Assembly: GCA_020854145.1 (NCBI GenBank)
Contig: JADZFZ010001081.1
Coordinates: 1-62,104 of the forward strand
DNA from: Deltaproteobacteria bacterium
GTDB lineage: Bacteria; Myxococcota_A; Polyangia; Polyangiales; JADZFZ01
Reading direction: 5' to 3'
Length of the DNA: 62,104 nt
The position numbers were made by a program, and so were the translations under genes. Below are positions 42,154 to 58,267 of the stretch, in pieces; position 1 is the stretch's first letter; the number at the start of each line of letters is the position of its first letter. The notes beneath the pieces were generated by a model. It saw nothing but the letters and a program-made list of their open reading frames with translations, did not search any database and was not told the origin of the DNA.

Positions 42154-45100
42154 GTCGCGTGTCCGACAGGGGTGCTCTCGAGGGCGTGAAGACCGAAGGC
42201 GGGCTCCTTCCTCCGGACCTGCTGCAGCGAATTGCCGCGGCCGACGCGAAGGTCGGGGGCCTGTCGGTGGACGACTACCACCTGGCCAAGAACGAGACGC
42301 TCGCCGAAGCGATCACCCGCTCGTGGAATCGTCTCCTCGCTGCCTGGGTGTCGTTCCGCGATGCGCGCGCCAGGCTGCCGGAGGGCGACAAGGCGATCGG
42401 GCCTACCCGCGACAAGTGGCTGTTGCCGCTCTTCCAGGAGCTCGGCTACGGGCGTCTCGCGAAAGCAGGACCCGAAAAATTCCGTGTCGGCGATCAGAGC
42501 TACGCAATCTCGCACTGTTGCCAGCATCCTTCGCCGATTCACCTTCTCGGCGCGGGCGTTCCGCTCCACACGAAGACGCCGGGCGTCGCCGGCGCAGCGA
42601 CCGCTTCGCCGCACGGCCTGCTGCAAGACTTCCTGAATCGGTCCGACGGGCACCTGTGGGGCTTCGTCTCGAACGGTCTGCTGCTACGCGTTCTGCGAGA
42701 CCACCGGAGCCTGACACGCTCGGCGTACGTGGAGTTCGATCTCGAATCGATCTTCGAGGGCGAGCTGTTCCACGCATTCCGATTGCTTTGGCTCGTGTGC
42801 CACCAGAGTCGCGTCGAGGCCGAGAAGCCCGAGGACTGCTGGCTCGAGAAGTGGCACGAGCTCGTCCGCGAGGAAGGAATCAACGCGCTCGACGATCTGC
42901 ATCGCGCGGTTCGCGAGGCGATCACGGTCTTCGGTCGGGGCTTCCTGCGGCACCCCACGAACGTCGCGCTCCGGGATGCGCTGACTTCGGGCGCGCTGGA
43001 CAAGCAGGACTATTACCGGGAGCTGCTCCGGTTGGTCTATCGGCTCATCTTCCTCTTCGTCACGGAGGACCGAGGCGTGTTGCTCGATCCCGGCGCGTCG
43101 GAGGATGCCCGGAGTCGCTACCTACGTTTCTACTCGACCAAGCGCCTCCGGGACCTCGCGCGCAAACGCCGCGGGAGCGCACATTCCGATTCGTGGCACG
43201 CGCTCCGCGTCGTGATGCGCGGCCTGGACGACGGTCTTCCGGCGCTGGGTCTCCCGGCGCTCGGGAGCTTCCTCTGGAGCCCGACCTGCATTGCGCACCT
43301 GGAGCCCGACGAGATCAGCAACGAAGATCTCCTCGCTGCAATCCGGGAGCTCTCCACGACCGTCGACAAGCGCAAGCAGCGTTTCCCGGTGAGCTGGCGG
43401 AACATCGGCTCCGAGGAGCTCGGGAGCGTCTACGAGCGGTTGTTGGAGCAACACCCCGAGGTGAACAAGACCGCCAGCACGTTCGAGCTCCGCACGGCGG
43501 CCGGCCACGAGCGCAAGACCACAGGCAGCTATTACACGCCGGCGTCGCTCGTCGAATGTCTCCTCGACACGGCACTCGAGCCCGTGGTCGACGACGCGCT
43601 GAAAGGCAAGTCCGGCAAAGCCGCCGAGGACGCGGTTCTCGCATTGACCGTGTGCGACCCCGCGTGCGGCTCGGGGCACTTCCTATTGGCCGCCGGTCGT
43701 CGATTGGCTCGCCGACTCGCCCGCGTCCGTTCGGGCGACGAGGAGCCGAGCCCCGAGGCGCAGCGTCACGCGTTGCGCGACGTCGTGGGGCGGTGTTTGT
43801 ACGGGGTGGACCTCAACGAGATGGCGGCCGAGCTCTGCAAGGTCAGCCTGTGGCTCGAGGCCATCGAGCCAGGGCGACCGCTGAGCTTCCTGGACGGGCA
43901 CATCCAGGTGGGCAATTCGCTGCTCGGCACGACCCCCGAGCTCATGGCGAAGGGCATCCCCGACGACGCGTGGACGGCCATCGAAGGCGACGACAAGGAA
44001 GTCGCGAAGTCGCTGAAGCGGCGCAACAAGCTGGAAGCGAAGGGGCAGCGGACGCTGGGAGGACTGTTCGACAAAGACCCGGCGGAGGAGGCGAATCAGA
44101 TTCTCGCCAAGACACAGAGCATCGAGGCTGTGAACGACGAAGACCGTGGCGGGCTGCGCCGGAAAGAGTCGGCCTGGGAAGCGCTGAGGAACTCGCCAGA
44201 GTACCGACACGCGACATTGGTGGCGGATGCATGGTGCGCCGCGTTCGTGTGGCCGAAGCAGCGCGGCGCGATGTCGGACGCAGCGCCGACGAACGGAACC
44301 TGGAGGACGCTGCGCGATCAGCCGGACCGGGCGTTGGCGAAGACGGTGGAGATCGTCGGGAAACTCGCGCGAGAGTACGCGTTCTTTCACTGGCGGATCC
44401 GGTTCCCCCAGGTCTTCGGGCGGGGAGGGTTCGATGCGGTGGCAGGGAACCCGCCGTGGGAGCGCATCAAACTGCAAGAAAAGGAGTACTTCGCTGGGCA
44501 TCACCAAATCGACGGCGCGGCCAATGCCGCCGCTCGGAAGGCGCTCATCTCCGGGCTCCAGCTCACCGACGAGGCACTCTGGGTCCGGTGGATATCTGCT
44601 CGACGGCTGGCCGACGGAGAAATGGCGCTTGTTCGATTGTCTCAACTCTACCGACTGTGCGCCGGAGGCGACATCAATGCCTATGCTCTCTTTGTGGAAC
44701 TCGCCCGGTCGCTACTTCGGTCGAGCGGGTACGTAGGCATGATAGTCCCTCCTGGCCTGCTGACGGACGACTCGCGGAAGGCGTTCGCCCGTGATGTCAT
44801 CGAGGGGCGCCGGCTCGCGTGCTTCTACGAATTCACCAATCGCGGATACCTCTTCAGCACTACCGAAAGCACAACCACTTTCGCCTTGGTAACCCTAACG
44901 GGCCACTCCAGAACTGCGAGGATCCGCTGTGCGGCGCATCTTTGGTCGGTTGCCGATCTCCGCAATACCGAGCGCACATACGAGCTGTCGTCCGAGGACG
45001 TAATCCGGCTTAATCCCAACACGCGGACCATGCCGGTTTTCGAGTCCGCCCGGAGCGCCGACATCACTGCCCGAATGTACGCGGCAACGCGAGTCCTGAT

Positions 45101-46454
45101 TTGCGAGGGCCAGCCGGACGGTGACCCGTGGCAACTGCAGCTCACAACCATGTTCCACATGGCGGCCGACTCAGCGAATTTTCGAACAGAATCAGAGCTC
45201 AAATCGGACGGCTATGTGCCGACTGCAAACGTCTACCGGCGGGGCGCGGACACGTACCGGCCGCTATACGAATCGAAACTTGCCTATGCGTACAACCATC
45301 GTGCCGGCTCCTTTGCTGGCGTCCCGCAGGACGAGATCCTTGGCCCGCGAGCACGAACGATCTCTGCGAGCGAGGTGGCGTTAGCCGATCCGGCCTGGCA
45401 GATAACCCCCAGATACTGGCTGCTTGAGGACCACATCGACACCGAGCTCGCTACTCGGGGATGGCAGGCAGGCTTCCGCGACGTTGTGAATGCGGTCGCG
45501 GATGCCAGGTGTGTTTCCGCGGCGATCCTTCCAGTGGCCCCCGTCGGACACACCATCACATTGCTCCGGACTGGGGGTGGCGCACGAACAACCGCTCTAT
45601 TGCTGGGCGTCCTAAATAGCTTCGCGTGCGACTACGCCGCGAGGCAGAAGATCTCCGGGTCGCATTTGAGCGCGTACATCGTCCGACAGCTACCGGCTCC
45701 TCCGCCTCAAGAGTTCGCGCGATCGTGCGTATGGGACGCCGGAGTGAGTCTCGGCGACTGGATAATACCGCGAGTCGTCGAACTGTCGTACACGGCGTGG
45801 GACATCGAGCAATTTGCCCGCGACTGTGGCTTCGCTTCTTCGCCCTTCCGATATGACGATGAACGGCGCCTCGTCATGAGGTCGGAGCTTGACTCTGCGC
45901 TTGCCCATGCGTTCAGGCTCAGCCGCAGTGACTGTGAGTACCTTCTTGAGTCGTTTCCGGTGGTTCGGCGAAGCGATGAGCGCCGCTACGGCGAGTACCG
46001 CACGAAGCGCCTCATCCTCGAGTGCTACGACGCCATGGCCGAAGCAGCCTCGAAGGGCACTACCTACCAGACACGCCTCGACCCGCCGCCGGCCAACCCC
46101 GGCGTGGCGCACGGACCGACGCCGTGGCGGCAGGTGGTCCGGTCGGATCGGGGAGCGCAGTCGGTCTCGGCGTTCGAGGTGCGCTACTGCGGCGGCGATG
46201 TCGTCGAGGTGCGCGGTCAGGACGCGAGCGAACCCGAGCTGCGCACGGCGACGGCGCACTTCGGGGAGCCGGAGTACGAGACCATCGAGGGCGGGGACGC
46301 TGACGGTAGTCGCGGCGACCGACGGCGGCTCAAGCTGCGCGGGTACTTCGAGTGGTTGACTCGGCTGGACAGTCTGCCGGCTCCGTTTCGAGCGCGCCCA
46401 CTCCCAGCCCAGGAGCCACACGCGGCCTCGGCTGGCTCGGAGGACTCCCAATGA
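42150..46454 (+). CDS. large N6-adenine DNA methyltransferase (type IIG/Eco57I- or DrmMI-like) with TRD
   Basis: GTGA overlap; ELGSVYERLL, RKTTGSYYTP, DPACGSGHFL (motif I), GVDLN, GNPPW (motif IV). Confidence 0.92.
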   Translation: MSRVSDRGALEGVKTEGGLLPPDLLQRIAAADAKVGGLSVDDYHLAKNETLAEAITRSWNRLLAAWVSFRDARARLPEGDKAIGPTRDKWLLPLFQELGYGRLAKAGPEKFRVGDQSYAISHCCQHPSPIHLLGAGVPLHTKTPGVAGAATASPHGLLQDFLNRSDGHLWGFVSNGLLLRVLRDHRSLTRSAYVEFDLESIFEGELFHAFRLLWLVCHQSRVEAEKPEDCWLEKWHELVREEGINALDDLHRAVREAITVFGRGFLRHPTNVALRDALTSGALDKQDYYRELLRLVYRLIFLFVTEDRGVLLDPGASEDARSRYLRFYSTKRLRDLARKRRGSAHSDSWHALRVVMRGLDDGLPALGLPALGSFLWSPTCIAHLEPDEISNEDLLAAIRELSTTVDKRKQRFPVSWRNIGSEELGSVYERLLEQHPEVNKTASTFELRTAAGHERKTTGSYYTPASLVECLLDTALEPVVDDALKGKSGKAAEDAVLALTVCDPACGSGHFLLAAGRRLARRLARVRSGDEEPSPEAQRHALRDVVGRCLYGVDLNEMAAELCKVSLWLEAIEPGRPLSFLDGHIQVGNSLLGTTPELMAKGIPDDAWTAIEGDDKEVAKSLKRRNKLEAKGQRTLGGLFDKDPAEEANQILAKTQSIEAVNDEDRGGLRRKESAWEALRNSPEYRHATLVADAWCAAFVWPKQRGAMSDAAPTNGTWRTLRDQPDRALAKTVEIVGKLAREYAFFHWRIRFPQVFGRGGFDAVAGNPPWERIKLQEKEYFAGHHQIDGAANAAARKALISGLQLTDEALWVRWISARRLADGEMALVRLSQLYRLCAGGDINAYALFVELARSLLRSSGYVGMIVPPGLLTDDSRKAFARDVIEGRRLACFYEFTNRGYLFSTTESTTTFALVTLTGHSRTARIRCAAHLWSVADLRNTERTYELSSEDVIRLNPNTRTMPVFESARSADITARMYAATRVLICEGQPDGDPWQLQLTTMFHMAADSANFRTESELKSDGYVPTANVYRRGADTYRPLYESKLAYAYNHRAGSFAGVPQDEILGPRARTISASEVALADPAWQITPRYWLLEDHIDTELATRGWQAGFRDVVNAVADARCVSAAILPVAPVGHTITLLRTGGGARTTALLLGVLNSFACDYAARQKISGSHLSAYIVRQLPAPPPQEFARSCVWDAGVSLGDWIIPRVVELSYTAWDIEQFARDCGFASSPFRYDDERRLVMRSELDSALAHAFRLSRSDCEYLLESFPVVRRSDERRYGEYRTKRLILECYDAMAEAASKGTTYQTRLDPPPANPGVAHGPTPWRQVVRSDRGAQSVSAFEVRYCGGDVVEVRGQDASEPELRTATAHFGEPEYETIEGGDADGSRGDRRRLKLRGYFEWLTRLDSLPAPFRARPLPAQEPHAASAGSEDSQ

Positions 46455-49036
46455 CGTTCACCCCGGTGCAGCGGATGTTGGAGCGAGTCGACCTCGCCCG
46501 AGCTGATTCGGACACAAGCCTGTTCTTCGATCTGCTGGGGTTGGCGGAGTTGGTCGCGAAGATCCTCACCGCGTCTGTCGTCGCTGCCATCGCCGACGAC
46601 AAGGATCGCACGCGGTATGGCCAACTCCACCGTCTCGTTCGGGCGGACGGAATCGGCGAATGGGCTGCCGTTCTGGACGAGACTGTCAGCGGTCCCCCTT
46701 CCCAGGGAATTCTACCCGAAGCACGGCCACTCCTGCGCGAGTTGAGCGAGAAGTGCCCGGCTGGCACGTGGCAGTTTGAGGCCGTGAGCCGCATGCACGA
46801 GTGCCTGCTCGTGGTGGGCGCAAGTCCAGAGGCACTCCCGGCCAAGCCCCAACTGAAAACGTGGTTCGCCAAGTTCGCCACCCTCCGCAACAAGACTCGC
46901 GGCCACGGTGCGTGCCCTAGTCGAGTACTCGCCGACGCCTGCGTACCTCTCGAGGCGTCGGTCCGCAGGATTATCGACAACTCGGCGGCGTTTTCGGCGT
47001 CGTGGGCCTACCTCCATCGTAATCTCAACGGCAAGTATCGGGTCACGCCGCTCACAGATGTGGCCGCTGCTTTCGGCAACTTGAAAAGCACTACGCAGCA
47101 CAATTTTCCTGACGGGGTGTATGTTCATCTGGGTCGCCCCGTTCGGGTGGACTTGGTTGACTCCGACGTAGACGCCTCCGACTTCGTTGTGGCGAACGGA
47201 GGGTTCGGCGGCGACCGCTACGAGATGCTGTCGTACGCTACCGGCCAAACGCGCTTTGCGGAGTCGTCCGCATTTCGGCTGCCGCCGACGCAACTTCCGA
47301 GCAGCGAGACGGCAGGCCTCGGCGAGTTGGACGCGGTTGGCGCCTGCTTCACCAACTTGCCGAAAACGCCCGTTGACTACATCCAGCGACCCGTCAGTGA
47401 GGCCGCGCTGCGCGAGTTTCTGCATGACGACTATCGCCGGATTGTCACACTCATCGGCCGGGGAGGAATCGGCAAGACCAGCCTCGCATTAGCGTGCCTC
47501 GACCGCATCGCGAGGGAAGGCGGCCGATTCGAGGTCATCGTTTGGCTGAGCGCGCGTGACCTCGATCTCCTGCCGCAGGGGCCCAAGCGCGTTCGGCCCG
47601 ACGTGATCGATCACAACGATATCGCTCGGGAGTACGCGCGTCTGCTGCAGCCGGACGAGGCGGGGCTGAAGAGTTTTCGAGCCACGGACTTCCTCGCACG
47701 TGAACTGGGCGAGGCAGCGGCTGGACCTACGCTATTCGTCCTCGATAACTTCGAGACGGTGAGTAGCCCGCCCGTTCTCTATCAGTGGATCGATAGTCAC
47801 ATTCGCCCCCCGAACAAGGTCTTGATCACTACGAGGCATCGGGATTTCAGTGGCGACTATCCAATCGAAGTCGGTGGAATGTCCGACTCCGAGTGCGAGA
47901 GGCTGATCGAATCTGTCGCTCGTCGCCTGCGCATTCAGGAACTGCTGACTTCGGACTACATTGAAGACGTCATTCGAGAGTCCGAGGGCCATCCTTATGT
48001 CATGAAAATTCTCCTCGGGGAGGTCGCGAAAACCGGAATGCTTCGGAAGGTCGAGCGCATCGTGGCGGAGTCGGACGCAATCCTCGATGCGTTGTTCGAA
48101 CGAACGTTCTTGGCACTGTCGCCTGCGGCACAGAGAGTGTTCTTGACAGTGTGCGGTTGGCGCTCCGCAGTTCCACGAGTTGGGCTCGAGGCGATCTTGC
48201 TGCGCGCCGCAAACGAGAGGATCGCGGCCAGGGATGCGATCGAGGAGCTTCAGCGAAGCTCCTTCATCGAGTCACTGGAGTCTTCTGAGGATGGGCAGAT
48301 GTTCATTGCTGCTCCCCTAGTCGCCCGACTGTTCGGGCAGCGAAAGCTGTTGGTGAGTCCCATGAAGACCGCCATTCAGGCTGACGTTGATTTGCTCCGG
48401 GCATTCGGGCCAACTACCCGGCCGGAGACGCGGCAAGGATTTGCCCCGCGACTCAGGCAAATGGTCCGGCATGTGGCCCGGAAAGGTGCCGGTGAGTTCG
48501 AGCAGTATATTCCCATCCTCGAGTTTATCGCGTGCAGTTACCCTGGTGCGTGGTTGGAGCTCGCTACGATGTATGAAGAGAGTTCTCAGCCCGACGGGAT
48601 GGACCGGGCCATCTATGCTCTGCGGCGGTACTTGGAGAGTGGCACGCAGGAGTATGCTGGCGAGGTTTGGACTCGGTTGGCCGAGATTTGTCGGCGGACG
48701 GGTGACACTGTTGGGGAGTTGCAGGCTCTGATCGAGGCGGCAGAGTGCACTGGGGCAAGCCTCGAGGCGGTCTCGGCTGCGGCGAATCGCGTCAACAACC
48801 TGTTTCGTGTCGCCGCCGTCGACTCGAGTGAAAAGCACATTCTCGTGCGCCGACTTGTCGACGCCATGGCGGCGAACATCGGACGCGGCACCGCGACGGA
48901 CTACTCGCGACTGGCTTGGTTGTGCCTGCATCTCAAGGACGCCGTGCGCGCTAGGAAGTACGTGGCCGCGGGACTTCAGTTGGACCCGACGAACGAACAC
49001 TGCGTACGGCTCGAGGAGCGTCTCAGTGCCGGCTGA
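46451..49036 (+). CDS. STAND/NB-ARC-type NTPase with N-terminal HEPN-like domain and C-terminal TPR-like repeats
   Basis: ATGA overlap; LRNKTRGHG (46886-46906); GRGGIGKTSLA, LFVLDNFETV, VLITTR, GHP; helical repeats. Confidence 0.82.
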   Translation: MTFTPVQRMLERVDLARADSDTSLFFDLLGLAELVAKILTASVVAAIADDKDRTRYGQLHRLVRADGIGEWAAVLDETVSGPPSQGILPEARPLLRELSEKCPAGTWQFEAVSRMHECLLVVGASPEALPAKPQLKTWFAKFATLRNKTRGHGACPSRVLADACVPLEASVRRIIDNSAAFSASWAYLHRNLNGKYRVTPLTDVAAAFGNLKSTTQHNFPDGVYVHLGRPVRVDLVDSDVDASDFVVANGGFGGDRYEMLSYATGQTRFAESSAFRLPPTQLPSSETAGLGELDAVGACFTNLPKTPVDYIQRPVSEAALREFLHDDYRRIVTLIGRGGIGKTSLALACLDRIAREGGRFEVIVWLSARDLDLLPQGPKRVRPDVIDHNDIAREYARLLQPDEAGLKSFRATDFLARELGEAAAGPTLFVLDNFETVSSPPVLYQWIDSHIRPPNKVLITTRHRDFSGDYPIEVGGMSDSECERLIESVARRLRIQELLTSDYIEDVIRESEGHPYVMKILLGEVAKTGMLRKVERIVAESDAILDALFERTFLALSPAAQRVFLTVCGWRSAVPRVGLEAILLRAANERIAARDAIEELQRSSFIESLESSEDGQMFIAAPLVARLFGQRKLLVSPMKTAIQADVDLLRAFGPTTRPETRQGFAPRLRQMVRHVARKGAGEFEQYIPILEFIACSYPGAWLELATMYEESSQPDGMDRAIYALRRYLESGTQEYAGEVWTRLAEICRRTGDTVGELQALIEAAECTGASLEAVSAAANRVNNLFRVAAVDSSEKHILVRRLVDAMAANIGRGTATDYSRLAWLCLHLKDAVRARKYVAAGLQLDPTNEHCVRLEERLSAG

Positions 49037-49305
49037 TCTCGGGCGCGTCGCAGGGCTTCGCGTCCCGCGGGGAGATGCTCGCCAGTCGGGCCGCTCTGGC
49101 GTCATGTGGCTCGTGTGACTTCAAGGGCGCGCGCTGCCGCTGAGGGTATCACCCCTCTCCGGGAGCCTGGGACCGCGTACCCCCCGGAGTGGTGTGCCGG
49201 CACGCGGGAGACCGCGCGGCCGCCGGAGGTGCGCATCGGTGAGGCGCTGGCCGGGTTCGCCCGCGCACGATTGCGGGAGCGTGGCCCTCGAATGCAGGTG
49301 AGTCG

Positions 49306-50949
49306 ATGACGCTCACGGGCGGTTGGCTCCTTCCTCCCACGCCGATCCGAGGCCTCGACCACCTCGGCGTCCAGGCGCCTTGCATCGCGCTGTATGCGCA
49401 GCTCCTGCCCGGGATCACCAACGTCACGGACCGCGCCCGCTACTACAGCTTCTATCCCTGGTTCCTCTGGTCCTTCGACCAACGCGCCACCGATCGCTCG
49501 GAAGAGTCCTTCGTCCGCGAGCTCCGCCGCGCCGAATGCTTGCTCACGCTCATCGCGAATCGACACTGCCAGGTCAGCGGCGAACCGCAGGTGCTCCACG
49601 ACAGCGCGATGACCGGCAATCAGAAGCTGGGCCCTGCCGTCCGCGCGCTGGAGGCGGGAGCTGCGCTCGACCTCGAATCGTTTGCGGCATTCGAGGGGGA
49701 CCGCCGGTACTTCAAGTCCAAGTGGGGCGGGTTCGGCCAGTACTACTGGGGATCCCTCCGCGACCTGCGAATCGTCGACTCCACCCCGAGCGGAGTGCCG
49801 GGGTACGACCAGACGCGTGGGGTCGCGCTCGCGCGGGCCTTCGAGGGAGGCGTCTCCTCCGATGCATTCTTCGAGGTGCTCGCCCGCGGCAGCGTCTCGC
49901 TCGATGAGCTCGACCGACTCTCACCGTTCTGCCCGTGCGGGTTGCGCGCGAACGCACCCGAGCTCGAGGCGTTGCTCGACGTGTTCCTCGCGCGGACCGC
50001 CGAGTATCTCGAAGATGGCGGTGACGCTCGCCGCGAGTCCCTCGCGCTCCTGCTCTCCATTGCCGACGCCTCCGGCGATGGCGTCGACGAGTGGCGGCTT
50101 CGCGTGGCTGCGTACTCGGGATGTTTGCTCTCGGGCCAGACTTGGGAGCTGCCCGCTCGTCTCCAGGCAATCTGCTCGCGGTGGGCAATCTACGAGCGCA
50201 ACGAGCTCCTCTCCATCGCCATACAAGGACTCTTCTGGGCCGTCCTGCAGGCGATCGACGTCCATCGGCGGGGCCGCCTCCGCGGCGTGGCCGAGGCGGG
50301 CGACGTGCTCGTGGCGCTCGCGGCGGAAACCGATTGGGTAGGCCGGCTCGACGGGACGGTCGCAGCCGCCGTCGATCAGGTCGCGTCGTCTCTGCCCGCG
50401 CGCGGAAGCTGGGATGACGAGCGGCACGAGGAGCGCCTCGCCACGAAGGTCCAGGAGATTGCCGGGCGATTCGATTGCCAGGCTGCCGACTTGCCTGGGG
50501 TTGTCGATCGCGCCCTCTCGATTCTCGCCGCTCTGATGATTCGGCAGGCTGCCGAGGCCGACGGCTACCCATATGCCGGCTTCGACTTCGCGGCGGATCA
50601 CTTCGGCGGCACCGAGATCGATCTCGCCTCTTTCCGGGTTCAATCGCCGCGCTGGCGAGGGCTCACGGTTCGCCATTGGCTGAGCTGGCTCGCCACCACG
50701 TGGGGAGTCGAACGTCATCTCCGCGTTGCCCTCCGGAAGCTCCGCGCGCAGAGCCAGGACACGTTTCGCATTCGCCCGCTGGACGACCGCCTCCAGGTGG
50801 TCGAGGTGGCCCCGGCGGGATTCACGGGGCCTCGGGTACGGCAGGCCCTCCAGATTCTCCTCGATCTCGGGCTCCTCACGCGTACCGAAACGGGCGCCAT
50901 GGTGTCGAGCCAACGCGGACGTGCGGAGCTGGAGAAGATCCTTGGGTGA
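49306..50949 (+). CDS. DUF6361-like hypothetical defence protein with C-terminal winged helix
   Basis: GLDHLG...LLPGITNVTDRARYYSFYPW; ends PRVRQALQILLDLGLL...G. Confidence 0.65.
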   Translation: MTLTGGWLLPPTPIRGLDHLGVQAPCIALYAQLLPGITNVTDRARYYSFYPWFLWSFDQRATDRSEESFVRELRRAECLLTLIANRHCQVSGEPQVLHDSAMTGNQKLGPAVRALEAGAALDLESFAAFEGDRRYFKSKWGGFGQYYWGSLRDLRIVDSTPSGVPGYDQTRGVALARAFEGGVSSDAFFEVLARGSVSLDELDRLSPFCPCGLRANAPELEALLDVFLARTAEYLEDGGDARRESLALLLSIADASGDGVDEWRLRVAAYSGCLLSGQTWELPARLQAICSRWAIYERNELLSIAIQGLFWAVLQAIDVHRRGRLRGVAEAGDVLVALAAETDWVGRLDGTVAAAVDQVASSLPARGSWDDERHEERLATKVQEIAGRFDCQAADLPGVVDRALSILAALMIRQAAEADGYPYAGFDFAADHFGGTEIDLASFRVQSPRWRGLTVRHWLSWLATTWGVERHLRVALRKLRAQSQDTFRIRPLDDRLQVVEVAPAGFTGPRVRQALQILLDLGLLTRTETGAMVSSQRGRAELEKILG

Positions 50950-53518
50950 TCTGGCGCTCCTCGACCGGCTGTCCGATGCCGGCTTCTCGGCGAGCATCGC
51001 CACCACGTACAACGTCTACCTCCCGTTCTACGAGCAACTCGTCCTCCGACGCCTGCGCGCCGCGGGTTGCCAACACAACGTGCTCCTCGTGGACGCGAGC
51101 CAGCTTGCGGCCTCCATCGCGGACGAGCACCAGCGTCCCCGGCTCGCTGGCATCGATTACACCCTCGTGCCGGTGAGCGCCGGAGGCGCCTTCCACCCGA
51201 AGGTGCTGCTCCGCCTCGGCAAGCGGAAAGGCTCGCTCTACGTCGGCAGCCACAATCTCACCCTCGCGGGGACGGGCCACAATCACGAGCTCACGACCGC
51301 GGTTCGTTACGACGGAACGGGCTCACGCGAGGCCGTCGTCCATTTCCGCGAGGTGATCGCCGAGCTTCGCGGCTACCTCGAAACCTCGCTTCCTGGTGTG
51401 CGCGAAGCCTTCGAGGCCGCCGTGCGCACGGCACCGTGGTTGTCGGGTCCCGCGCCGGTCTCGCCCGACACCGTCGTCGTCGGGAGCCACCGCGATGTGG
51501 CGACGCTCTGGACTCGCGTACGCAAGCTGGTTCGCGGCGCCGCGCGTCGCGTCCTGGTCGTGGGGCCTTTCTTCGACGAAGAGCTCTCTCTGCTTCGCGC
51601 GATTGCTCGGGATCTCCTGCCGACCGAGGGGATCTTCGTCGCCATCGACCCGGAGACGGTGTCCATCGATCCGACCGTCGCGGCCGCGGCGCCGTTTCGG
51701 TTCGTCGATGCGTCGGGGCAGCTCCCGCGGGAGAGGCGTCGGGACGGCGAGCGTGGCTATCTCCACGCCAAGGCGCTCTGGTTCCAGACCGATGAAGGGG
51801 AGTTGCTCGTCCTCGGAAGCGCGAATCCCACCGCGGCTGCGTTCCTCCTCGATCTCGCGAATCGTAACGCGGAGATCGTCGTCGCGCGCTGGTCCGAGGC
51901 GACGACTACCGAGCTCCTCGGCGAGGCGGGGCTCGGGCCGCTGCTCGAGGCGCCTCCCGTCACCGAGACCCAATGGGCCGCGCTGCACGCACGCAACGAC
52001 GCCGACGGTGAGTCGGGTGACGCCCCCGCAACCGACCGAGCAGGCGTTCTTCTCGCGGAGACGGTCGAGGATGGGTTTCTCGTCGGCGGCGTGATCGCCG
52101 ATCGCGTGGTCGCGCTCGACGACGACGGCACCGAGCTCGAGACGCTGCAACCCGATCCTCCGGCGGATTCCAAGACCCATGTTCCCGCGTCGGCCGAGAC
52201 GCGCGACCGCGCGAGGTGGCTGCGCTCGACGACCGACCAGGGGTCCGTGGTCCTCGTTCACCACACGACGCGCGTCGCCGAGCTCTACGTGTCCAGTGCA
52301 CGTCGCGAGCTCCGGGCTGCGCTCGGCCGGCTCGACGAGGATCCGTCGCAACTCGAGACGCTGCTTCAATTGACCGAGAAGGCGATCTTCGATTCGGGCG
52401 ACATCACGCGTCCAGCGGTACGCGGTGACCACGGGAGCCCGGACGGGGTCACGGCGACGCCCGTCTCGGAGGCCAGCTCACTCGCAATCGACGCCCAAGG
52501 ACGCCCGTCTGCTCGGCGCAAACGGAGGCAGATCGCCAGCGGAGACCTCGCCGTGCTCCTCGACGCGCTCATTCATCGATTGGGACAGGGCCTATTGTCG
52601 GTTGCGACGGGTGACGAGGGCAGAAGCGAGGAGGAGTTGGTCGGTTCGGACGACGACGAGCCGCCCATCGCCACGCCGCCGCTCGATCTCGACCTGTCCG
52701 CACTCGCGGAGAAGTGTCGGCGGAAGGTGAAGCTGCTCGTCAAACGGATGCTGGCGCAGCTCGACAAGGCCAAGGCTGCCCCCGACGACGCCGAGCCCTC
52801 GCGTCGTGCCGTCGTGCAGCTCGCCGCAGTCCTTGCCATCATTCGCGCGCTCCGCGCCTACGAGCGCCGATCCGAATGGCGGCGCGCGGGATTGCGCCTG
52901 CTCGACGACAAGGCCCTCGTCCAGCTCTTCGATTCAGCCAACGCGTCTCTCGTCCCTCCGGAGGATGGGATTCTCGCGCGTGCCCTCGTTGCCAACTACG
53001 ACGAGCCGTTCGAGGAGCATCACCTCGTGATTGGCCTCCTCGTGTGGTTGGCGTGGGAGACCGGCATCGACCTCGAGCACCCGCTCTCCGCCACCCTGTC
53101 CGTCGAGCTCGACGCCGACCCGTGGCCGCCGCTGCAGTGGCTGCTCTTCCTGGCTCCATGGATCGACGACCACGTTACGAGGACGATCGAGGACGCCGTG
53201 CGCGCCACGCCGCGCCGCGGACATGATCCCGAACGCTGGCTTCGAGCCCACCTTCCGTGGCTCCAATTCGTTGCCAGCATCGAGCGCTCGCCCGACCCCT
53301 CGGCGACCCTCGGCGGACGCTTCGCGCGCGGGGACCTCGTGTGCCTGGCCGCGAGTCAGCGCCCGCGCGTCCGCCTCGTTCTCCGCGTCGACGACGGAAC
53401 CCAGGGCGCGAAGCTCCAGCTGATGCGCCCCGACGGGACTCTGATGTGGATGCTCGCGTCGCGCGTCGCGCGAGTGCCCACCGAACCCAACGTGCATGCC
53501 GCAGTCGGAGCCCGGTGA
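50942..53518 (+). CDS. phospholipase D-family nuclease with two HxK motifs
   Basis: FHPKVLL..LYVGSHNLT and LHAKAL..LVLGSANPT; TTG start overlaps the upstream stop by 8 nt. Confidence 0.82.
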   Translation: MGDLALLDRLSDAGFSASIATTYNVYLPFYEQLVLRRLRAAGCQHNVLLVDASQLAASIADEHQRPRLAGIDYTLVPVSAGGAFHPKVLLRLGKRKGSLYVGSHNLTLAGTGHNHELTTAVRYDGTGSREAVVHFREVIAELRGYLETSLPGVREAFEAAVRTAPWLSGPAPVSPDTVVVGSHRDVATLWTRVRKLVRGAARRVLVVGPFFDEELSLLRAIARDLLPTEGIFVAIDPETVSIDPTVAAAAPFRFVDASGQLPRERRRDGERGYLHAKALWFQTDEGELLVLGSANPTAAAFLLDLANRNAEIVVARWSEATTTELLGEAGLGPLLEAPPVTETQWAALHARNDADGESGDAPATDRAGVLLAETVEDGFLVGGVIADRVVALDDDGTELETLQPDPPADSKTHVPASAETRDRARWLRSTTDQGSVVLVHHTTRVAELYVSSARRELRAALGRLDEDPSQLETLLQLTEKAIFDSGDITRPAVRGDHGSPDGVTATPVSEASSLAIDAQGRPSARRKRRQIASGDLAVLLDALIHRLGQGLLSVATGDEGRSEEELVGSDDDEPPIATPPLDLDLSALAEKCRRKVKLLVKRMLAQLDKAKAAPDDAEPSRRAVVQLAAVLAIIRALRAYERRSEWRRAGLRLLDDKALVQLFDSANASLVPPEDGILARALVANYDEPFEEHHLVIGLLVWLAWETGIDLEHPLSATLSVELDADPWPPLQWLLFLAPWIDDHVTRTIEDAVRATPRRGHDPERWLRAHLPWLQFVASIERSPDPSATLGGRFARGDLVCLAASQRPRVRLVLRVDDGTQGAKLQLMRPDGTLMWMLASRVARVPTEPNVHAAVGAR

Positions 53519-55722
53519 TGACGGTCGACGGTGACGCGAGCGCGTTCCTCGCGCGGCTCTGGGCCCACCTTCTCGGGGGTGCGCCGGATCTCGCGGTCGT
53601 CGTGCGGCCCATGGACGGCGGCGAGCGCAGGGCGTCGGGCGAATGGCGAGTGCCCGCTTTCGCGCCGGAGCAGATCAGCATCGGCCCCGACGAGCTGCCG
53701 TCGTTCGTCGCAGGGCTGGGAACCCGGAGGCGGCAGCGACTGCTCGTCGTGGCACTCGGATACCCCGGGGCTGATAGGTCGGATGTAACCGATCCGGTCG
53801 GAGAGGCCCTGGCCGATCTGCCCGCGGACATTCGGTGCGCGATCTGGCTACCCGCAACTGCCCTGGAGAGTCGGAGAACCGCCGCGATGCGCAGCGCGTT
53901 GAGGGGCAGAGCACGGTGGATTGTCTGGCTCCGCGACCTCGTGAATCCGCTCTTCGACATCCACGCGCTCTTCGACTCCGCACTCGTGGTGACCGGCGGA
54001 GCCGACGACGGGTGTATTCGCCTGGTCGACCTCCGTCGTGCCCGGACCCACGACGACGCTATCGATGCAGTCGCGCGCTGCGGTGTTCGGGGCGGTGGCG
54101 AGGTCGAGAACACGATCGTCCTGCGCAAGGACACCGTCGCGCTGGACGACGCTCCCTGGACGTTCCTCCGCTTCTCACGGGTCCTCTCCGATTCGCTCGC
54201 GGACACACGGGCGCTCGGTCCCACCGTCACGCTCGGCGACGTCGCCGATATCGCCCGTGCTGTACATCGATTCGAGCGCGCTCGAGGAGGAGCCGCGGGT
54301 CGTCCGGGATTGCACCGGGCATACGACGCGCGGTCGCTCCGAGAAGATGGTTCGCTGGGGGATGACATCGGCAGCCTTTCACCCGAGAAGATGCGGCCCG
54401 CCGCAGCCCTGCGCGCTTGTGACGTCCTGGTTCGTACGATCCGCCGCACCGGCGAGCCGCTTCGCGCCGCTGTCGTCACCGATGCGAACCTCCCCGCCGT
54501 GGCTGTCGGCAACCTCGTGCGGGTTCGATTTCGCGAGCCGCCGCGCTGGCTCGATCTGCTCACGTCCTACTTGGGATCGGAAAGAGTCACCAAGCGTCTC
54601 GACGCGGCGAGCTCCGGCTCCCACGTGCACGTTGCCGTCCTCCGGGAACTGCCGATCCCGGTCCCGAATCCGGAGGTGCTCGATGCCCTCGATCGCCTCC
54701 AACGAGACGAGCGACACCACCTTCGTTGGGCGGCGGAGCTTCAAGAAGCTCGACGGGGCCTGTTCCAATCGCGCTCGTACCGTGACGACGTCCCTCGCCT
54801 GCTTGCAGTCGCCCGCGAATCGGCCGACCGCGTCGAAGCCGCGCACTTCGCAGGAACCCTCGAGGCTCTGATTCGGGATCGGTTTCCCCATCCCTTCGCG
54901 CTGAGGTGGGATGTGCTCGCGACGCTCCCGCACGGGGAGAAGCGCTTCGGCAAGACGCTGGAATGCGCAGAGCACTGGTTCACGTACCTCGCCATCCTGG
55001 CGACTACCGTGCGGGTCCAGCTCGGCAAGTCACCCCTTGTTCAACCCAGCTGGGTCGACAGAGGCAATCGACTGACCTTCGACTTCGGCAAAGTCGTAGA
55101 CATCGTGCGGAGCACGGCGGCCCTCTGTTCCAAGCACCCCGACCCGCTGGAGCTCGCAGTCCCCGAGCTCGCGCGCCTGCACGAGGCGTTCTGCGACACC
55201 GACGGCAAGTGGACCCACGCCGTCCGCGACTTGATGGACGTGCGAAACAAGCAGGCGCACCTCACCCGCCTGCCGCCGGGCGAACTGGCCGACCTCTGTC
55301 GGCGCATGTCGGCCGACCTCGCAGTCGTGTTCGACGCGTGCCGCTTCGTGACCGCCACGCCGCTGGTTCACGTGCTCGACTACCGCCTGGACCCGATGAC
55401 GGGCGGGAGGCTGGCGACCTACGAACGTCTCGTCGGGATCAGTGCCGCCGCACGTCGAGAGACTGCGTTGGTGCAGCGCGAGCTTCCTCGTGGCGGCGTC
55501 GGGATCCTCGACAGGAAGGGTCAGTTCCACTCGCTCGCGCCGTGGCTCCTGCGCGAAGCGTGTGAGTCCTGCAAGCGACCGGAGACGTTCGTCTTCAGCA
55601 AGATGGACGGTGAGGACGTTTCCTGGGTCGCCTTCGAGACGGGCCATCCGCGCTTGCGCTCGGACATGGCTGCTCGTGTTCGCGCCGCGATAGGCTCGAA
55701 CGACTCGGATGGCAGCCGATGA
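53518..55722 (+). CDS. degenerate N6-MTase, TRD (HsdS-like) and HEPN-like fusion
   Basis: TGATG overlap; AIWLPATAL...MRSAL..WIVWL..LF resembles MTase C-half without FxGxG/NPPY; LGDVADI, DVLV, L..YLGS, LRELPIPVP (TRD); RNKQAH (55243-55260). Confidence 0.65.
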   Translation: MTVDGDASAFLARLWAHLLGGAPDLAVVVRPMDGGERRASGEWRVPAFAPEQISIGPDELPSFVAGLGTRRRQRLLVVALGYPGADRSDVTDPVGEALADLPADIRCAIWLPATALESRRTAAMRSALRGRARWIVWLRDLVNPLFDIHALFDSALVVTGGADDGCIRLVDLRRARTHDDAIDAVARCGVRGGGEVENTIVLRKDTVALDDAPWTFLRFSRVLSDSLADTRALGPTVTLGDVADIARAVHRFERARGGAAGRPGLHRAYDARSLREDGSLGDDIGSLSPEKMRPAAALRACDVLVRTIRRTGEPLRAAVVTDANLPAVAVGNLVRVRFREPPRWLDLLTSYLGSERVTKRLDAASSGSHVHVAVLRELPIPVPNPEVLDALDRLQRDERHHLRWAAELQEARRGLFQSRSYRDDVPRLLAVARESADRVEAAHFAGTLEALIRDRFPHPFALRWDVLATLPHGEKRFGKTLECAEHWFTYLAILATTVRVQLGKSPLVQPSWVDRGNRLTFDFGKVVDIVRSTAALCSKHPDPLELAVPELARLHEAFCDTDGKWTHAVRDLMDVRNKQAHLTRLPPGELADLCRRMSADLAVVFDACRFVTATPLVHVLDYRLDPMTGGRLATYERLVGISAAARRETALVQRELPRGGVGILDRKGQFHSLAPWLLREACESCKRPETFVFSKMDGEDVSWVAFETGHPRLRSDMAARVRAAIGSNDSDGSR

Positions 55723-55789
55723 TGCCCCGTCACCACTCTCTCCTTCGGACGCGTGAAACCTCGACCCGTCGTTGGTACGTGGAGGTCGC

Positions 55790-58147: not shown

Positions 58148-58267
58148 CGGGCCGGTGGGCTTCGGCGGGAGAGGTCAGGAGGCCGTCGGTCGGTTCTCGC
58201 AGGTCGTCCGAGAAGGTGCGGCGCGGTTCGATCGGAACGGCGTCGGGCGCAGAGGAACGGTGACGCC

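What the first reader, a model, noticed from the sequence alone, without database searches (positions are those of the whole stretch)
49306..55722. DUF6361-like plus double-HxK PLD pair whose third gene is not a helicase
Seen: three overlapping genes (8-nt and 1-nt overlaps). Recalled: the Azaca system includes a DUF6361 protein and a helicase. Here the third slot holds a dead MTase-TRD-HEPN-like fusion. Inference: a three-gene system with a different sensing/effector subunit; the PLD might also serve as the missing DrmC for the upstream operon.
Basis: partly seen in the sequence, partly recalled or inferred. Interest (0 to 1): 0.62.

Follow-up and report, generated by a model that had tools for sequence, protein, structure and literature searches.

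The report
Azaca-like nuclease pair beside ARMADA accessory gene
The three overlapping genes are real, but they are not one conserved system: the first two are a widespread, untested two-gene nuclease module distantly related to the Azaca anti-phage system, and the third elsewhere belongs to the ARMADA-type defence operon found just upstream.

Summary
Genes A (49306-50949), B (50942-53518) and C (53518-55722) overlap by 8 nt and 1 nt.

A and B:
- B has two intact HxK...GSxN motifs. Its first ~320 residues are homologous to ZacB (hhalign 99%).
- A is not a Pfam DUF6361 member. Its N-terminal ~150 residues are remotely homologous to DUF6361 (hhalign 92%). The rest is a confident fold with no PDB match.
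- A and B are adjacent in all 8 other loci examined; the 5 with intact flanks show no operonic helicase, and none has C.
- True DUF6361 loci in the same phylum carry the Azaca trio, with a ~1075-aa helicase in at least 5 of 8.

C:
- C is a catalytically dead TaqI-like methyltransferase plus TRD, then an HEPN-like domain (invariant Rx4H) and a Cys-Cys-His beta domain.
- In 5 of 7 other full-length contexts C sits inside or at the end of a YprA-helicase/SNF2/methyltransferase operon. The literature calls this ARMADA type I, and the window carries one upstream.

So the trio is a local junction of two units. The "missing DrmC" idea is unnecessary, because the ARMADA helicase carries its own DUF559/Vsr-type nuclease domain. 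The novelty is moderate: an unnamed helicase-less Azaca relative and an undescribed ARMADA accessory gene.

The parts
49306..50949 (+). Gene A, 547 aa: ZacA-like partner protein of the two-gene module
   Evidence: More than 1000 homologues at 46-57% identity with no Pfam domain. PADLOC ZacA hits 46 of 46 family members, best E 9e-6, always at the N-terminal motif. AlphaFold model pLDDT 91.8, pTM 0.90, with no PDB fold match at E<0.4.
49354..49809 (+). A residues ~17-168: DUF6361-like N-terminal region containing the invariant LLPGITNVTDRARYYSFYPW motif
   Evidence: hhalign of the A family (A2) against 10 true DUF6361 proteins (A4): probability 92.2%, E 5.8e-7, 116 aligned columns. Direct tblastn hit of A residues 17-92 on a DUF6361 gene in L074, E 9e-5.
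50758..50946 (+). A residues ~485-547: probable winged-helix domain
   Evidence: Helix-strand-strand-helix pattern in the model. Weak Mrr_N hits in 9 of 46 members, best E 0.004. Short Foldseek hits to a ribosomal-protein chain that I take to be a winged-helix protein. This is an inference.
50942..53518 (+). Gene B, 858 aa: two-HKD PLD-superfamily nuclease, ZacB-like, with a unique ~500-aa C-terminal extension
   Evidence: Pfam PLDc_2 1.8e-8. PADLOC ZacB 1.7e-20 and DrmC 4e-5. hhalign of B residues 10-322 against ZacB 81-415: probability 99.1%, E 1.6e-18. No similarity to the ZacC helicase. The C-terminal half has no Pfam hit.
51194..51256 (+). B HKD motif 1 (H85-P-K87 ... G102-S-H-N105)
   Evidence: Invariant in the 7-sequence B alignment.
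51764..51826 (+). B HKD motif 2 (H275-A-K277 ... G292-S-A-N295)
   Evidence: K277, G292, S293 and N295 are invariant. H275 is present in 6 of 7 sequences.
53518..55722 (+). Gene C, 734 aa: pseudo-methyltransferase + TRD + HEPN-like + Zn-ribbon protein; an accessory gene of ARMADA type I operons elsewhere
   Evidence: 447 family representatives. Model pLDDT 92.3, pTM 0.84. Genomic contexts.
53518..54222 (+). C residues ~1-235: gamma-class N6-adenine methyltransferase fold without catalytic motifs
   Evidence: Top Foldseek hits are M.TaqI, CamA, M.BseCI, BpuSI and BrxX, E 4e-10 to 3e-7. The profile gives weak hits to BsaXI, EcoKI M and BseCI methyltransferase domains. At the motif IV position, placed by eye, the window protein has G-Y-P-G and homologues have xPPR or xPxR; no glycine-rich motif I was seen by eye.
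54223..54669 (+). C residues ~236-384: target recognition domain (TRD)
   Evidence: Profile hit to the M.TaqI TRD (chain residues 259-405), E 6e-7. PADLOC type I specificity subunit, E 0.003. Pfam Methylase_S in 3 members.
54859..55356 (+). C residues ~448-613: all-helical HEPN-like domain with invariant R576-N-K-Q-A-H581 (nt 55243-55260) and invariant E485
   Evidence: R576, H581 and E485 are invariant across 64 sequences. Helices come from the model. Pfam HEPN families reach only E ~0.14 in single members, so the assignment rests on the motif.
55363..55692 (+). C residues ~616-725: beta-rich domain with invariant C682, C685 and H710 (probable Zn ribbon)
   Evidence: Invariant columns. Weak Zn_ribbon_LapB hits in 11 of 64 members. 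Beta strands in the model.
31704..46454 (+). Upstream ARMADA-like operon: YprA-type helicase with MZB/DUF1998 and DUF559 nuclease (31704-37232), UvrD/GajB-like helicase (~37229-39301), SNF2 BrxHII/DrmD-like helicase (~39298-42153), PglX/DrmMI-like N6-methyltransferase (~42150-46454)
   Evidence: PADLOC and Pfam hits. DUF559 at 21.9 bits, above the 20.6 cut-off. Orthologues at 40-64% identity stand next to C homologues in L001, L035/36 and L037. System defined in bioRxiv 10.1101/2025.09.15.676423.
46451..49036 (+). STAND (NB-ARC) NTPase gene between the methyltransferase and gene A
   Evidence: Pfam NB-ARC 1.8e-10. GC3 is 0.72 against 0.79-0.82 for its neighbours. It is absent at this position in the other ARMADA-plus-C loci.

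Best explanation
The 6.4-kb stretch joins two separate defence units.

Unit 1 is genes A+B. It is one copy of a widespread, unnamed two-gene module: a ~545-aa partner protein plus a ~855-aa two-HKD PLD nuclease. The partner has a DUF6361-like N-terminal region, a fold with no PDB match and a probable winged-helix tail. The nuclease domain is homologous to ZacB. The module is a distant relative of the three-gene Azaca system and lacks Azaca's SF2 helicase ZacC. The likely mechanism is inferred, not shown: A binds B and DNA and licenses the PLD to cut invading DNA without a dedicated motor.

Unit 2 is gene C. Elsewhere it is an accessory gene of ARMADA type I operons (YprA helicase-nuclease, SNF2 helicase, PglX-like methyltransferase). 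C has a methyltransferase-plus-TRD body that has lost its catalytic motifs, fused to an HEPN-like domain and a Zn-ribbon domain. The likely mechanism is again inferred. The dead methyltransferase/TRD acts as a reader of DNA, of the ARMADA methyltransferase complex, or of phage anti-restriction proteins.

In this genome a STAND gene and the A-B pair occupy the slot between the ARMADA methyltransferase and C. In four other loci that slot holds a HATPase/DUF4325 gene. A, B and C are therefore probably co-transcribed and translationally coupled here, but they are not a conserved three-gene system.
For: A-B is a fixed pair that occurs without C.
- A and B homologues are adjacent in L002/L003, L004, L005, L041, L047, L048, L049 and L051.
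- The A/B start-stop overlap is kept in the annotated loci.
- Where flanks were read (L002, L004, L005, L047, L048), the neighbours differ from locus to locus: a his operon, a type I R-M system, BREX genes, an McrBC-like pair and a tRNA synthetase.
- None of these loci has C.

The relation to Azaca is real but remote.
- PADLOC ZacB hits B at 1.7e-20, and hhalign of B against ZacB gives 99.1%.
- hhalign of A against DUF6361 gives 92.2% over the N-terminus only.
- True DUF6361 loci in the same phylum show a DUF6361 gene (~400 aa), a ~625-730-aa ORF and a ~1075-1200-aa helicase in at least 5 of 8; all 8 have a helicase-motif hit nearby.

C goes with ARMADA.
- The order helicase(MZB)-SNF2-MTase-HATPase/DUF4325-C is seen in L001, the JGI contig of P0129 and L035/36.
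- L034 shows MTase end-HATPase/DUF4325-C.
- L037 shows helicase-SNF2-C-MTase.
- These neighbours are orthologues of the window's genes at 40-64% identity.
- In 401 genomes of the phylum, full-length C is found only in this genome, and the A family is found at high score in 5 genomes.

C's fold and motifs are covered.

C's HEPN-like/Zn module is portable. The same genome has a cNMP-binding + module protein, and the module occurs inside other open frames of 257-2294 aa in 14 other genomes.

ARMADA does not need a DrmC. The helicase has a DUF559 domain, and the literature describes a fused Vsr-type nuclease.
Against: - The B/C junction is a 1-nt ATGA-type overlap with its own GGAG, the signature of operonic coupling. 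Functional cooperation in this genome therefore cannot be excluded.
- In L033 a C homologue lies directly next to an Azaca/PDC-M27-like trio, convergently transcribed. Two of 8 full-length C contexts thus touch a Zac-type PLD system, more than I would expect by chance.
- C also occurs alone: L031/32 beside Zorya, and distant homologues on Streptomyces plasmids. It is not strictly ARMADA-bound.
- The HEPN assignment rests on a motif and helices, not on a significant family or fold match.
- The synteny samples are small (8 A-B loci and 7 other C contexts) compared with more than 1000 and 447 family members.
- There is no compositional sign of insertion for A-B: GC3 is 0.82, like its neighbours.
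- No experiment exists for either unit.
Confidence: 0.72

Rival explanations
1. A, B and C form one three-component system in which C, a DNA reader plus HEPN effector, takes the place of the Azaca helicase ZacC as the sensing or effector subunit.
For: Overlaps of 8 nt and 1 nt, with ribosome-binding sites. All three Azaca subunits are needed for DNA cleavage in vitro, so a helicase-less pair might need a third partner. In L033 a C homologue is adjacent to an Azaca-like trio.
Against: None of 8 other A-B loci has C, and none of 7 other C contexts has the A-B family. The A-B pair stands between housekeeping or unrelated genes in L002 and L048. C lies inside ARMADA operons elsewhere, even between SNF2 and the methyltransferase in L037. 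In L033 the two units are on opposite strands.
Confidence: 0.1
2. A-B is a plug-in nuclease head for the ARMADA operon, a functional DrmC substitute. It would use the operon's SNF2 or YprA translocases in place of ZacC, so that the whole stretch 31704-55722 is one enlarged system.
For: A-B is embedded on the same strand between ARMADA genes and ARMADA's usual terminal gene C. B weakly hits a DrmC model, E 4e-5. Other A-B copies sit directly after a type I R-M operon (L004) and after BREX genes with a 4-nt overlap (L005). The window's SNF2 gene weakly hits ZacC, E 2e-15.
Against: The ARMADA helicase already has a DUF559/Vsr-type nuclease. The other ARMADA-plus-C loci show no PLD gene in the DNA held. 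A-B occurs with no translocase system next to it in L002 and L048. A 270-bp gap and a foreign-looking STAND gene separate A from the methyltransferase.
Confidence: 0.12
3. A-B is not an immune module. It would be a DNA-repair or mobile-element maintenance pair, for example a Tdp1-like phosphodiesterase with a DNA-binding partner, and its place in a defence island is incidental.
For: Two-HKD single-chain enzymes include non-nuclease phosphodiesterases (general knowledge of the PLD superfamily). No experiment links the pair to phage defence. In L002 the pair is next to the his operon.
Against: The PLD domain is specifically homologous to ZacB, a demonstrated defence nuclease. The pair is patchy, in about 1% of genomes in the phylum. 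It is usually surrounded by R-M, BREX, McrBC-like, toxin-antitoxin or integrase genes, and one copy is disrupted (L049). These are the hallmarks of accessory defence genes.
Confidence: 0.05

Closest known systems
Azaca (ZacA DUF6361 protein + ZacB PLD nuclease + ZacC SF2 helicase). The name is from Millman et al. 2022 (from memory); the biochemistry is in bioRxiv 10.1101/2025.07.10.664194.
   Same: B's two-HKD domain is homologous to ZacB (PADLOC 1.7e-20; hhalign 99.1%). A shares the N-terminal DUF6361 motif region (hhalign 92%). The gene order is partner first, then PLD, with overlapping genes.
   Different: There is no ZacC helicase, which is essential for Azaca's DNA cleavage in vitro. A is ~150 aa longer, and outside the N-terminus it has no detectable similarity to DUF6361; the Pfam model does not detect it. 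B is ~200 aa longer than ZacB, with an unrelated C-terminal half.
ARMADA type I / type II (disARM-related Antiviral Defense Array; bioRxiv 10.1101/2025.09.15.676423; mBio PMC13463889)
   Same: The upstream operon has the three defining genes: a YprA-family helicase with MZB/DUF1998 and a Vsr/DUF559-type nuclease, a BrxHII/DrmD-like SNF2 helicase and a PglX/DrmMI-like methyltransferase. They are in type I order. C homologues sit in such operons in 5 other loci.
   Different: The ARMADA description does not mention a C-like pseudo-methyltransferase-HEPN gene or a HATPase/DUF4325 gene. The window also has a UvrD/GajB-like helicase (a type II feature) between YprA and SNF2, plus a STAND gene and the A-B pair inserted before C.
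DISARM class 1 (DrmD, DrmMI, DrmA, DrmB, DrmC)
   Same: SNF2 helicase, N6-adenine methyltransferase and DUF1998-containing helicase. B is a PLD-superfamily protein, like DrmC, with a weak HMM hit at 4e-5.
   Different: DrmA and DrmB are fused here and carry a DUF559-type nuclease. B is an 858-aa ZacB-type two-HKD protein with an obligate partner A, whereas the PADLOC DrmC models it and its relatives hit are 153-269 positions long.
PrrC anticodon nuclease with the EcoprrI type I R-M system, and other R-M-linked HEPN proteins (Anantharaman et al. 2013, PMC3710099)
   Same: An HEPN-type domain is encoded inside a modification-dependent restriction-like operon. The proposed role is a latent back-up RNase held in check by R-M components.
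   Different: PrrC uses an ABC ATPase as its regulatory domain. In C the HEPN-like domain is fused to a dead methyltransferase-TRD. That paper states it did not observe this class of fusion (HEPN fused to methylases).
M.TaqI / CamA / M.BseCI gamma-class N6-adenine methyltransferases
   Same: The N-terminal ~440 residues of C have the same two-domain fold, catalytic domain plus TRD (Foldseek E 4e-10; TRD profile hit E 6e-7).
   Different: The NPPY-type motif IV and the SAM-binding motif I are absent, and about 290 residues of HEPN-like and Zn-ribbon domains are appended.

Membership tests
Azaca | ZacA subunit is a DUF6361 (PF19888) protein | tested here: not met
   PF19888 finds nothing in this genome in six frames at E<=1. 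Pfam scans of A and of 46 family members give no DUF6361 hit. Only remote N-terminal homology is seen: hhalign 92%, E 5.8e-7, and PADLOC ZacA at 1.9e-4 over 47 positions.
Azaca | ZacB PLD-family nuclease with HxK motifs | tested here: met
   PADLOC ZacB 1.7e-20. hhalign against ZacB proteins from true DUF6361 loci gives 99.1%, E 1.6e-18. Both HKD motifs are intact.
Azaca | ZacC SF2 helicase encoded in the operon | tested here: not met
   The third gene is a pseudo-methyltransferase-TRD-HEPN-like protein. B's C-terminus is unrelated to ZacC. No helicase follows A-B in the 5 loci with readable flanks. A ~1075-1200-aa helicase does follow in at least 5 of 8 true DUF6361 loci.
Azaca | Protection against phage and DNA cleavage by the complex | not testable with these tools
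   This needs phage challenge and biochemistry.
ARMADA (upstream operon, to which C is assigned as an accessory) | YprA-family helicase with DUF1998/MZB and a C-terminal Vsr-type nuclease | tested here: met
   DEAD, Helicase_C and MZB domains. DruE models at up to 9e-97. DUF559 at 21.9 bits, above the cut-off, in the last 243 residues.
ARMADA (upstream operon, to which C is assigned as an accessory) | BrxHII-like SNF2 helicase and PglX-like methyltransferase in the same operon | tested here: met
   SNF2: the best PADLOC hits are to models labelled DpdE (1e-240) and DrmD (1e-83). Methyltransferase: DrmMI 1.6e-69, with Eco57I and N6_Mtase domains.
ARMADA (upstream operon, to which C is assigned as an accessory) | Type assignment: type I is YprA-SNF2-MTase; type II is SNF2-MTase-YprA followed by RelE-GajB | tested here: inconclusive
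   The order is type I, but a UvrD/GajB-like helicase is inserted after YprA. No YprA phylogeny was made.
DISARM class 1 | Separate DrmA and DrmB genes followed by a small PLD gene, DrmC | tested here: not met
   The helicase and MZB are fused in one 1842-aa protein. The only PLD is the 858-aa ZacB-like B, with an obligate partner A.
HEPN superfamily (C residues ~448-613) | Rx4-6H motif with a polar residue after the Arg, in an all-helical domain | tested here: met
   R576-N-K-Q-A-H581. R and H are invariant in 64 sequences and are kept in the cNMP-binding paralogue. The region is helical in the model.
HEPN superfamily (C residues ~448-613) | Significant sequence or fold match to a known HEPN family | tested here: inconclusive
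   The best Pfam HEPN hits are E ~0.14 in single members. The PDB profile search gives none. The Foldseek list is filled by methyltransferase hits, so the domain could not be searched alone.
Gamma-class N6-adenine DNA methyltransferase (C residues ~1-384) | Methyltransferase catalytic fold plus TRD | tested here: met
   Foldseek hits to M.TaqI, CamA, BseCI, BpuSI and BrxX at probability 1.00. TaqI TRD profile hit at E 6e-7.
Gamma-class N6-adenine DNA methyltransferase (C residues ~1-384) | Catalytic motif IV (D/N)PP(Y/F/W) and SAM-binding motif I | tested here: not met
   At the position I placed by eye as motif IV, the window protein has L-G-Y-P-G and homologues have xPPR or xPxR. I saw no glycine-rich motif I after the first strand. 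The motif positions were not mapped by a structure-based alignment.

The most novel reading that the evidence does not exclude
In this genome, module shuffling may have produced a working three-part system. C's non-catalytic methyltransferase/TRD reader would supply sequence or methylation-state sensing, and an RNase back-up, to the motor-less ZacA/ZacB-like nuclease, taking the place of the ZacC helicase. The second case of a C homologue lying beside an Azaca-like trio (L033) would then reflect a recurrent functional affinity between C-family readers and Zac-type PLD nucleases.
Probability: 0.1. Interest if true: 0.7.

Novelty: new variant of a known kind. Interest (0 to 1): 0.45.

Why it matters
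- Azaca needs its helicase to cut DNA in vitro. A widespread relative with more than 1000 members that lacks any dedicated helicase raises the question of how a PLD nuclease is aimed and licensed without a motor. The A protein, whose confident predicted fold has no PDB match, is the obvious candidate for that role.
- Gene C adds an undescribed accessory to the recently defined ARMADA systems. It is a dead methyltransferase-TRD fused to an HEPN-like domain, a fusion class that the 2013 HEPN survey said it did not see. It could be a reader or decoy that turns failure of a modification-based system into an RNA-level back-up response.
- For annotation, three translationally coupled defence genes need not be one system. 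Here synteny separates them cleanly.

Tried and rejected
- The search for related loci with the C alignments A1 and A3 failed, because no stretch was conserved enough to search with.
- The word-indexed homologue search found only one C relative with the single protein and the same one with the profile. The exhaustive HMMER search was needed.
- hhalign of the A family against the single 441-aa first gene of the L033 Azaca-like trio gave nothing. The test was repeated properly with a 10-sequence DUF6361 alignment.
- B was tested against ZacC to see whether its C-terminal half is a degenerate helicase. No similarity was found.
- C was compared with the neighbouring ARMADA methyltransferase to see whether C is a recent paralogue. 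Only a generic TRD match appeared, E 0.004.
- I first took the wrong reading frame for the C-like paralogue on contig C1108 and corrected it.
- PDB sequence searches found nothing for B or for the helicase C-terminus, and only a noise hit (E 0.5) for the A profile.
- The promoter and terminator scan of 45500-58500 was uninformative in this 67% GC DNA.
- The taxon of the genome was not determined. The best A hits are from Myxococcota, but this was not tested.

Full report
**Observation**

The window is ~67% GC and carries three same-strand ORFs at the stated place.
- Gene A (49306-50949, 547 aa) ends at TGA 50947-50949.
- Gene B most likely starts at TTG 50942, preceded by GGAG, which gives an 8-nt overlap. 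A GTG at 50921 is an alternative start.
- B ends at TGA 53516-53518, and gene C starts at ATG 53518. This is a 1-nt overlap in GTGATGACG, with GGAG 7 nt upstream.
- A 270-bp gap separates A from the upstream STAND gene.

**Surroundings**

The stretch lies in a dense defence island.
- Upstream: a 1842-aa DEAD/Helicase_C/MZB helicase (PADLOC DruE models to 9e-97), a UvrD-type helicase, an SNF2 helicase (best PADLOC hits to models labelled DpdE, 1e-240, and DrmD, 1e-83), a DrmMI/Eco57I-type N6-methyltransferase and an NB-ARC STAND NTPase.
- Downstream: an FHA protein, an OLD/GajA-like ATPase and a HATPase protein.

Two papers define ARMADA systems as a YprA-family helicase with a fused Vsr-type nuclease, a BrxHII-like SNF2 helicase and a PglX-like methyltransferase. 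Type I has the order YprA-SNF2-MTase, and type II adds a RelE-GajB helicase (bioRxiv 10.1101/2025.09.15.676423; PMC13463889). The window's upstream operon fits this description. The last 243 residues of its helicase hit DUF559 above the curated cut-off.

**Genes A and B**

*Gene B*
- B hits Pfam PLDc_2 (1.8e-8), PADLOC ZacB (1.7e-20) and, weakly, DrmC.
- Both HKD motifs are intact: H85-x-K87...GSxN105 and H275-x-K277...GSxN295.
- A profile of 7 B-family proteins aligns to a profile of 8 proteins (7 taken from true DUF6361 loci, 1 from the L033 trio) at 99.1% probability, E 1.6e-18, over B residues 10-322.
- B's C-terminal ~500 residues match neither ZacB nor the ZacC helicase and have no Pfam hit.

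*Gene A*
- A has no Pfam or NCBIfam hit.
- The Pfam DUF6361 model PF19888 finds nothing in the whole genome at E<=1.
- The PADLOC ZacA model hits all 46 A-family members tested and is the only family that more than one member matches. The match is to a ~47-position N-terminal stretch, best E 9e-6.
- I collected 10 true DUF6361 proteins from 12 positive genomes among 401 of the same phylum. hhalign of the A family against them gives 92.2% probability, E 5.8e-7, over 116 columns (A 17-168).
- The shared core is visible by eye: LLPGITNVTDRARYYSFYPW in A against LFPGTSTIQTRxRYxLFVPW in DUF6361.
- The remainder of A is a confidently predicted, mainly helical fold (pLDDT 91.8, pTM 0.90) with no PDB match better than E 0.4. 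It ends in a probable winged helix.

A is therefore DUF6361-like only in a remote, N-terminal sense. It is not a member of the Pfam family.

**Synteny of A-B**

A has more than 1000 homologues at 46-57% identity, and the source records that name it call it hypothetical. In every locus examined, A is immediately followed by a B homologue.
- L002/L003: Rhodanobacteraceae, between toxin-antitoxin genes and the his operon.
- L004: Sorangium, after a type I R-M operon.
- L005: Sandaracinaceae, after BREX genes.
- L047: between an integrase gene and an McrBC-like pair.
- L048: after a tRNA synthetase gene.
- L041: a short contig that ends inside B.
- L049: A is interrupted.
- L051: a distant pair.

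None of these loci has a C homologue. In the five with intact flanks (L002, L004, L005, L047, L048), no gene adjacent to or co-oriented in an operon with the pair is a helicase.

True DUF6361 loci look different. They show a DUF6361 gene (~400 aa), a ~625-730-aa ORF and a ~1075-1200-aa helicase in at least 5 of 8 (L069, L070, L072, L073, L074), and all 8 have a helicase-motif hit nearby. This is the canonical Azaca layout.

For Azaca, ZacA, ZacB and ZacC are all required for cleavage of T4 DNA in vitro (bioRxiv 10.1101/2025.07.10.664194). A-B is thus a separate, helicase-less branch of the ZacA/ZacB lineage.

**Gene C**

C has no Pfam, NCBIfam or PDB sequence hit as a single sequence. The word-indexed search found one relative. 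The exhaustive HMMER search found 447 representatives, mostly 720-780 aa.

With a 64-sequence alignment, the model is confident (pLDDT 92.3, pTM 0.84).
- **Residues ~1-440.** Foldseek matches them to M.TaqI, CamA, M.BseCI, BpuSI and BrxX (E 4e-10 to 3e-7). The profile hits the M.TaqI TRD (E 6e-7).
- **Catalytic motifs.** At the position I placed by eye as NPPY-type motif IV, the window protein reads G-Y-P-G and homologues read xPPR or xPxR. I saw no glycine-rich motif I. The methyltransferase is therefore very probably dead. The motif positions were not mapped by a structure-based alignment.
- **Residues ~448-613.** This part is helical and carries the invariant R576-N-K-Q-A-H581, an Rx4H motif with the typical polar residue after the Arg, plus the invariant E485.
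- **Residues ~616-725.** This is a beta domain with invariant C682, C685 and H710.

Pfam HEPN models reach only E ~0.14. I rate the HEPN assignment at about 70%.

The HEPN-like/Zn module is portable. The same genome encodes a cNMP-binding domain (3.3e-20) fused to this module. The module alone also occurs in open frames of 257-2294 aa in 14 other genomes of the phylum. That pattern fits an effector placed under different sensor domains.

**Synteny of C**

- L001, the JGI contig carrying P0129 and L035/L036 all show helicase(MZB)-SNF2-MTase-HATPase/DUF4325-C with overlapping genes.
- L034 starts inside the methyltransferase and continues HATPase/DUF4325-C.
- L037 has helicase-SNF2-C-MTase.
- tblastn shows that these neighbours are orthologues of the window's ARMADA genes: helicase 44-64%, SNF2 42-56%, methyltransferase 40-49% identity.
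- The HATPase/DUF4325 protein matches the N-terminus of a PADLOC DrmA model at 9e-83. It therefore also belongs to this helicase world.
- Two contexts are not ARMADA-linked. In L031/32, C stands alone beside Zorya genes. In L033, C lies convergent to a 441-aa / 681-aa PLD / 941-aa helicase trio that hits ZacA, ZacB, ZacC and PDC-M27 models.
- More distant relatives on Streptomyces plasmids stand alone.
- Among 401 genomes of the phylum, only this genome has full-length C, and the A family is present at high score in 5.

**Conclusion on the trio**

- The most economical reading is that C is the usual 3' accessory gene of this ARMADA type I-like operon.
- In this genome, the slot between the methyltransferase and C is filled by a STAND gene and the A-B pair. 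Elsewhere that slot holds a HATPase/DUF4325 gene.
- The STAND gene has lower GC3 (0.72 against 0.79-0.82).
- A-B shows no compositional anomaly, so the age and direction of the rearrangement are open.
- The "missing DrmC" idea is not needed, because the ARMADA helicase has its own nuclease domain.

**Mechanism (inferred, not shown)**

- **A-B.** By homology with ZacB, B is a DNA-cutting PLD enzyme. A is always encoded just before B, usually with overlapping reading frames, and it shares with ZacA the motif region that is the only conserved link between the two families. A probably binds B and, through its winged helix, DNA, and so licenses cleavage. How targeting works without a translocase is unknown. 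Borrowing a neighbouring motor is possible but is not supported by the stand-alone copies.
- **C.** A non-catalytic methyltransferase/TRD body is a plausible reader of a DNA sequence or its methylation state, a partner of the ARMADA methyltransferase, or a decoy for anti-restriction proteins. The fused HEPN-like module would then act as a back-up RNase, in the manner proposed for R-M-linked HEPN proteins and shown for PrrC and EcoprrI (PMC3710099). That survey stated that R-M-linked HEPN domains fuse to nucleases, helicases and ATPases but not to methylases. C is an exception in form, although its methyltransferase is dead.

**Open points**

- The tight B/C junction and the L033 adjacency mean that a functional link between C-type readers and Zac-type PLD systems cannot be excluded. 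I give the three-part reading about 10% and the plug-in nuclease reading about 12%.
- The synteny samples are small.

**Earlier notes of this scan**

Several earlier notes describe the same helicase-less Azaca-like pair in other genomes, and others cover the STAND and DISARM-like genes in this window. They agree with what I found. I treated them as leads only and re-derived each point here.

**Verdict**

- Supported: the three gene descriptions.
- Not supported: the three-gene system and the DrmC substitution.

I class the finding as a new variant of a known kind, with moderate interest.

Noticed in passing
G000 contig C1108, L052:3612-4943 (+): The same genome encodes a 443-aa protein with a cyclic-nucleotide-binding domain (Pfam 3.3e-20) fused to a copy of gene C's HEPN-like/Zn module. 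It is 25% identical over C residues 423-710 and keeps the RNxxxH, CxxC and GH motifs. This suggests the module is a portable effector placed under different sensor domains.
   Followed up: partly
L033:334-8792: A C homologue (742 aa) lies convergent to, and 40 bp from, a 441-aa / 681-aa PLD / 941-aa SNF2 trio that hits ZacA, ZacB, ZacC and PDC-M27 models. Together with the window, this is a second adjacency of a C-family gene to a Zac-type PLD system.
   Followed up: partly
L001:8790-10004; L034:731-1951; L035:8703-10004: A ~400-430-aa HATPase/DUF4325 (STAS-like) gene precedes C in four ARMADA-type loci. It matches the N-terminus of a 1750-position PADLOC DrmA model at E 9e-83. The ARMADA paper does not mention it.
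   Followed up: partly
window 46451-49036: The STAND (NB-ARC) gene overlaps the methyltransferase stop by 4 nt but has clearly lower GC3 (0.72) than all its neighbours (0.79-0.82). It is absent at this position in the other ARMADA-plus-C loci, so it looks like a separate, probably later insertion.
   Followed up: partly
L049 (G344:C8), about 9400-12500: The A gene of this A-B copy is split in two (residues 3-342 and 355-514) by about 1.5 kb that contains a 402-aa ORF, possibly an insertion sequence. This copy of the module is probably inactivated.
   Followed up: no
L075:8797-10347 (Streptomyces sp. S501 plasmid NZ_CP038146.1) and three S. anulatus plasmids: A 516-aa protein annotated as 'restriction endonuclease' matches C residues 282-710 (TRD + HEPN-like + Zn domain) but lacks the pseudo-methyltransferase. 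It stands alone near a MobF relaxase gene.
   Followed up: no
L004:15026-20695: Downstream of the Sorangium A-B pair lies another PLD-containing set: an AAA_11/AAA_12 SF1 helicase (931 aa), an unknown 439-aa protein and a 521-aa PLDc_2 protein.
   Followed up: no
window 37229-37900: The first ~220 residues of the UvrD/GajB-like helicase have no significant Pfam hit. The ARMADA paper describes a RelE-like toxin domain at this position in type II systems. I did not test this.
   Followed up: no
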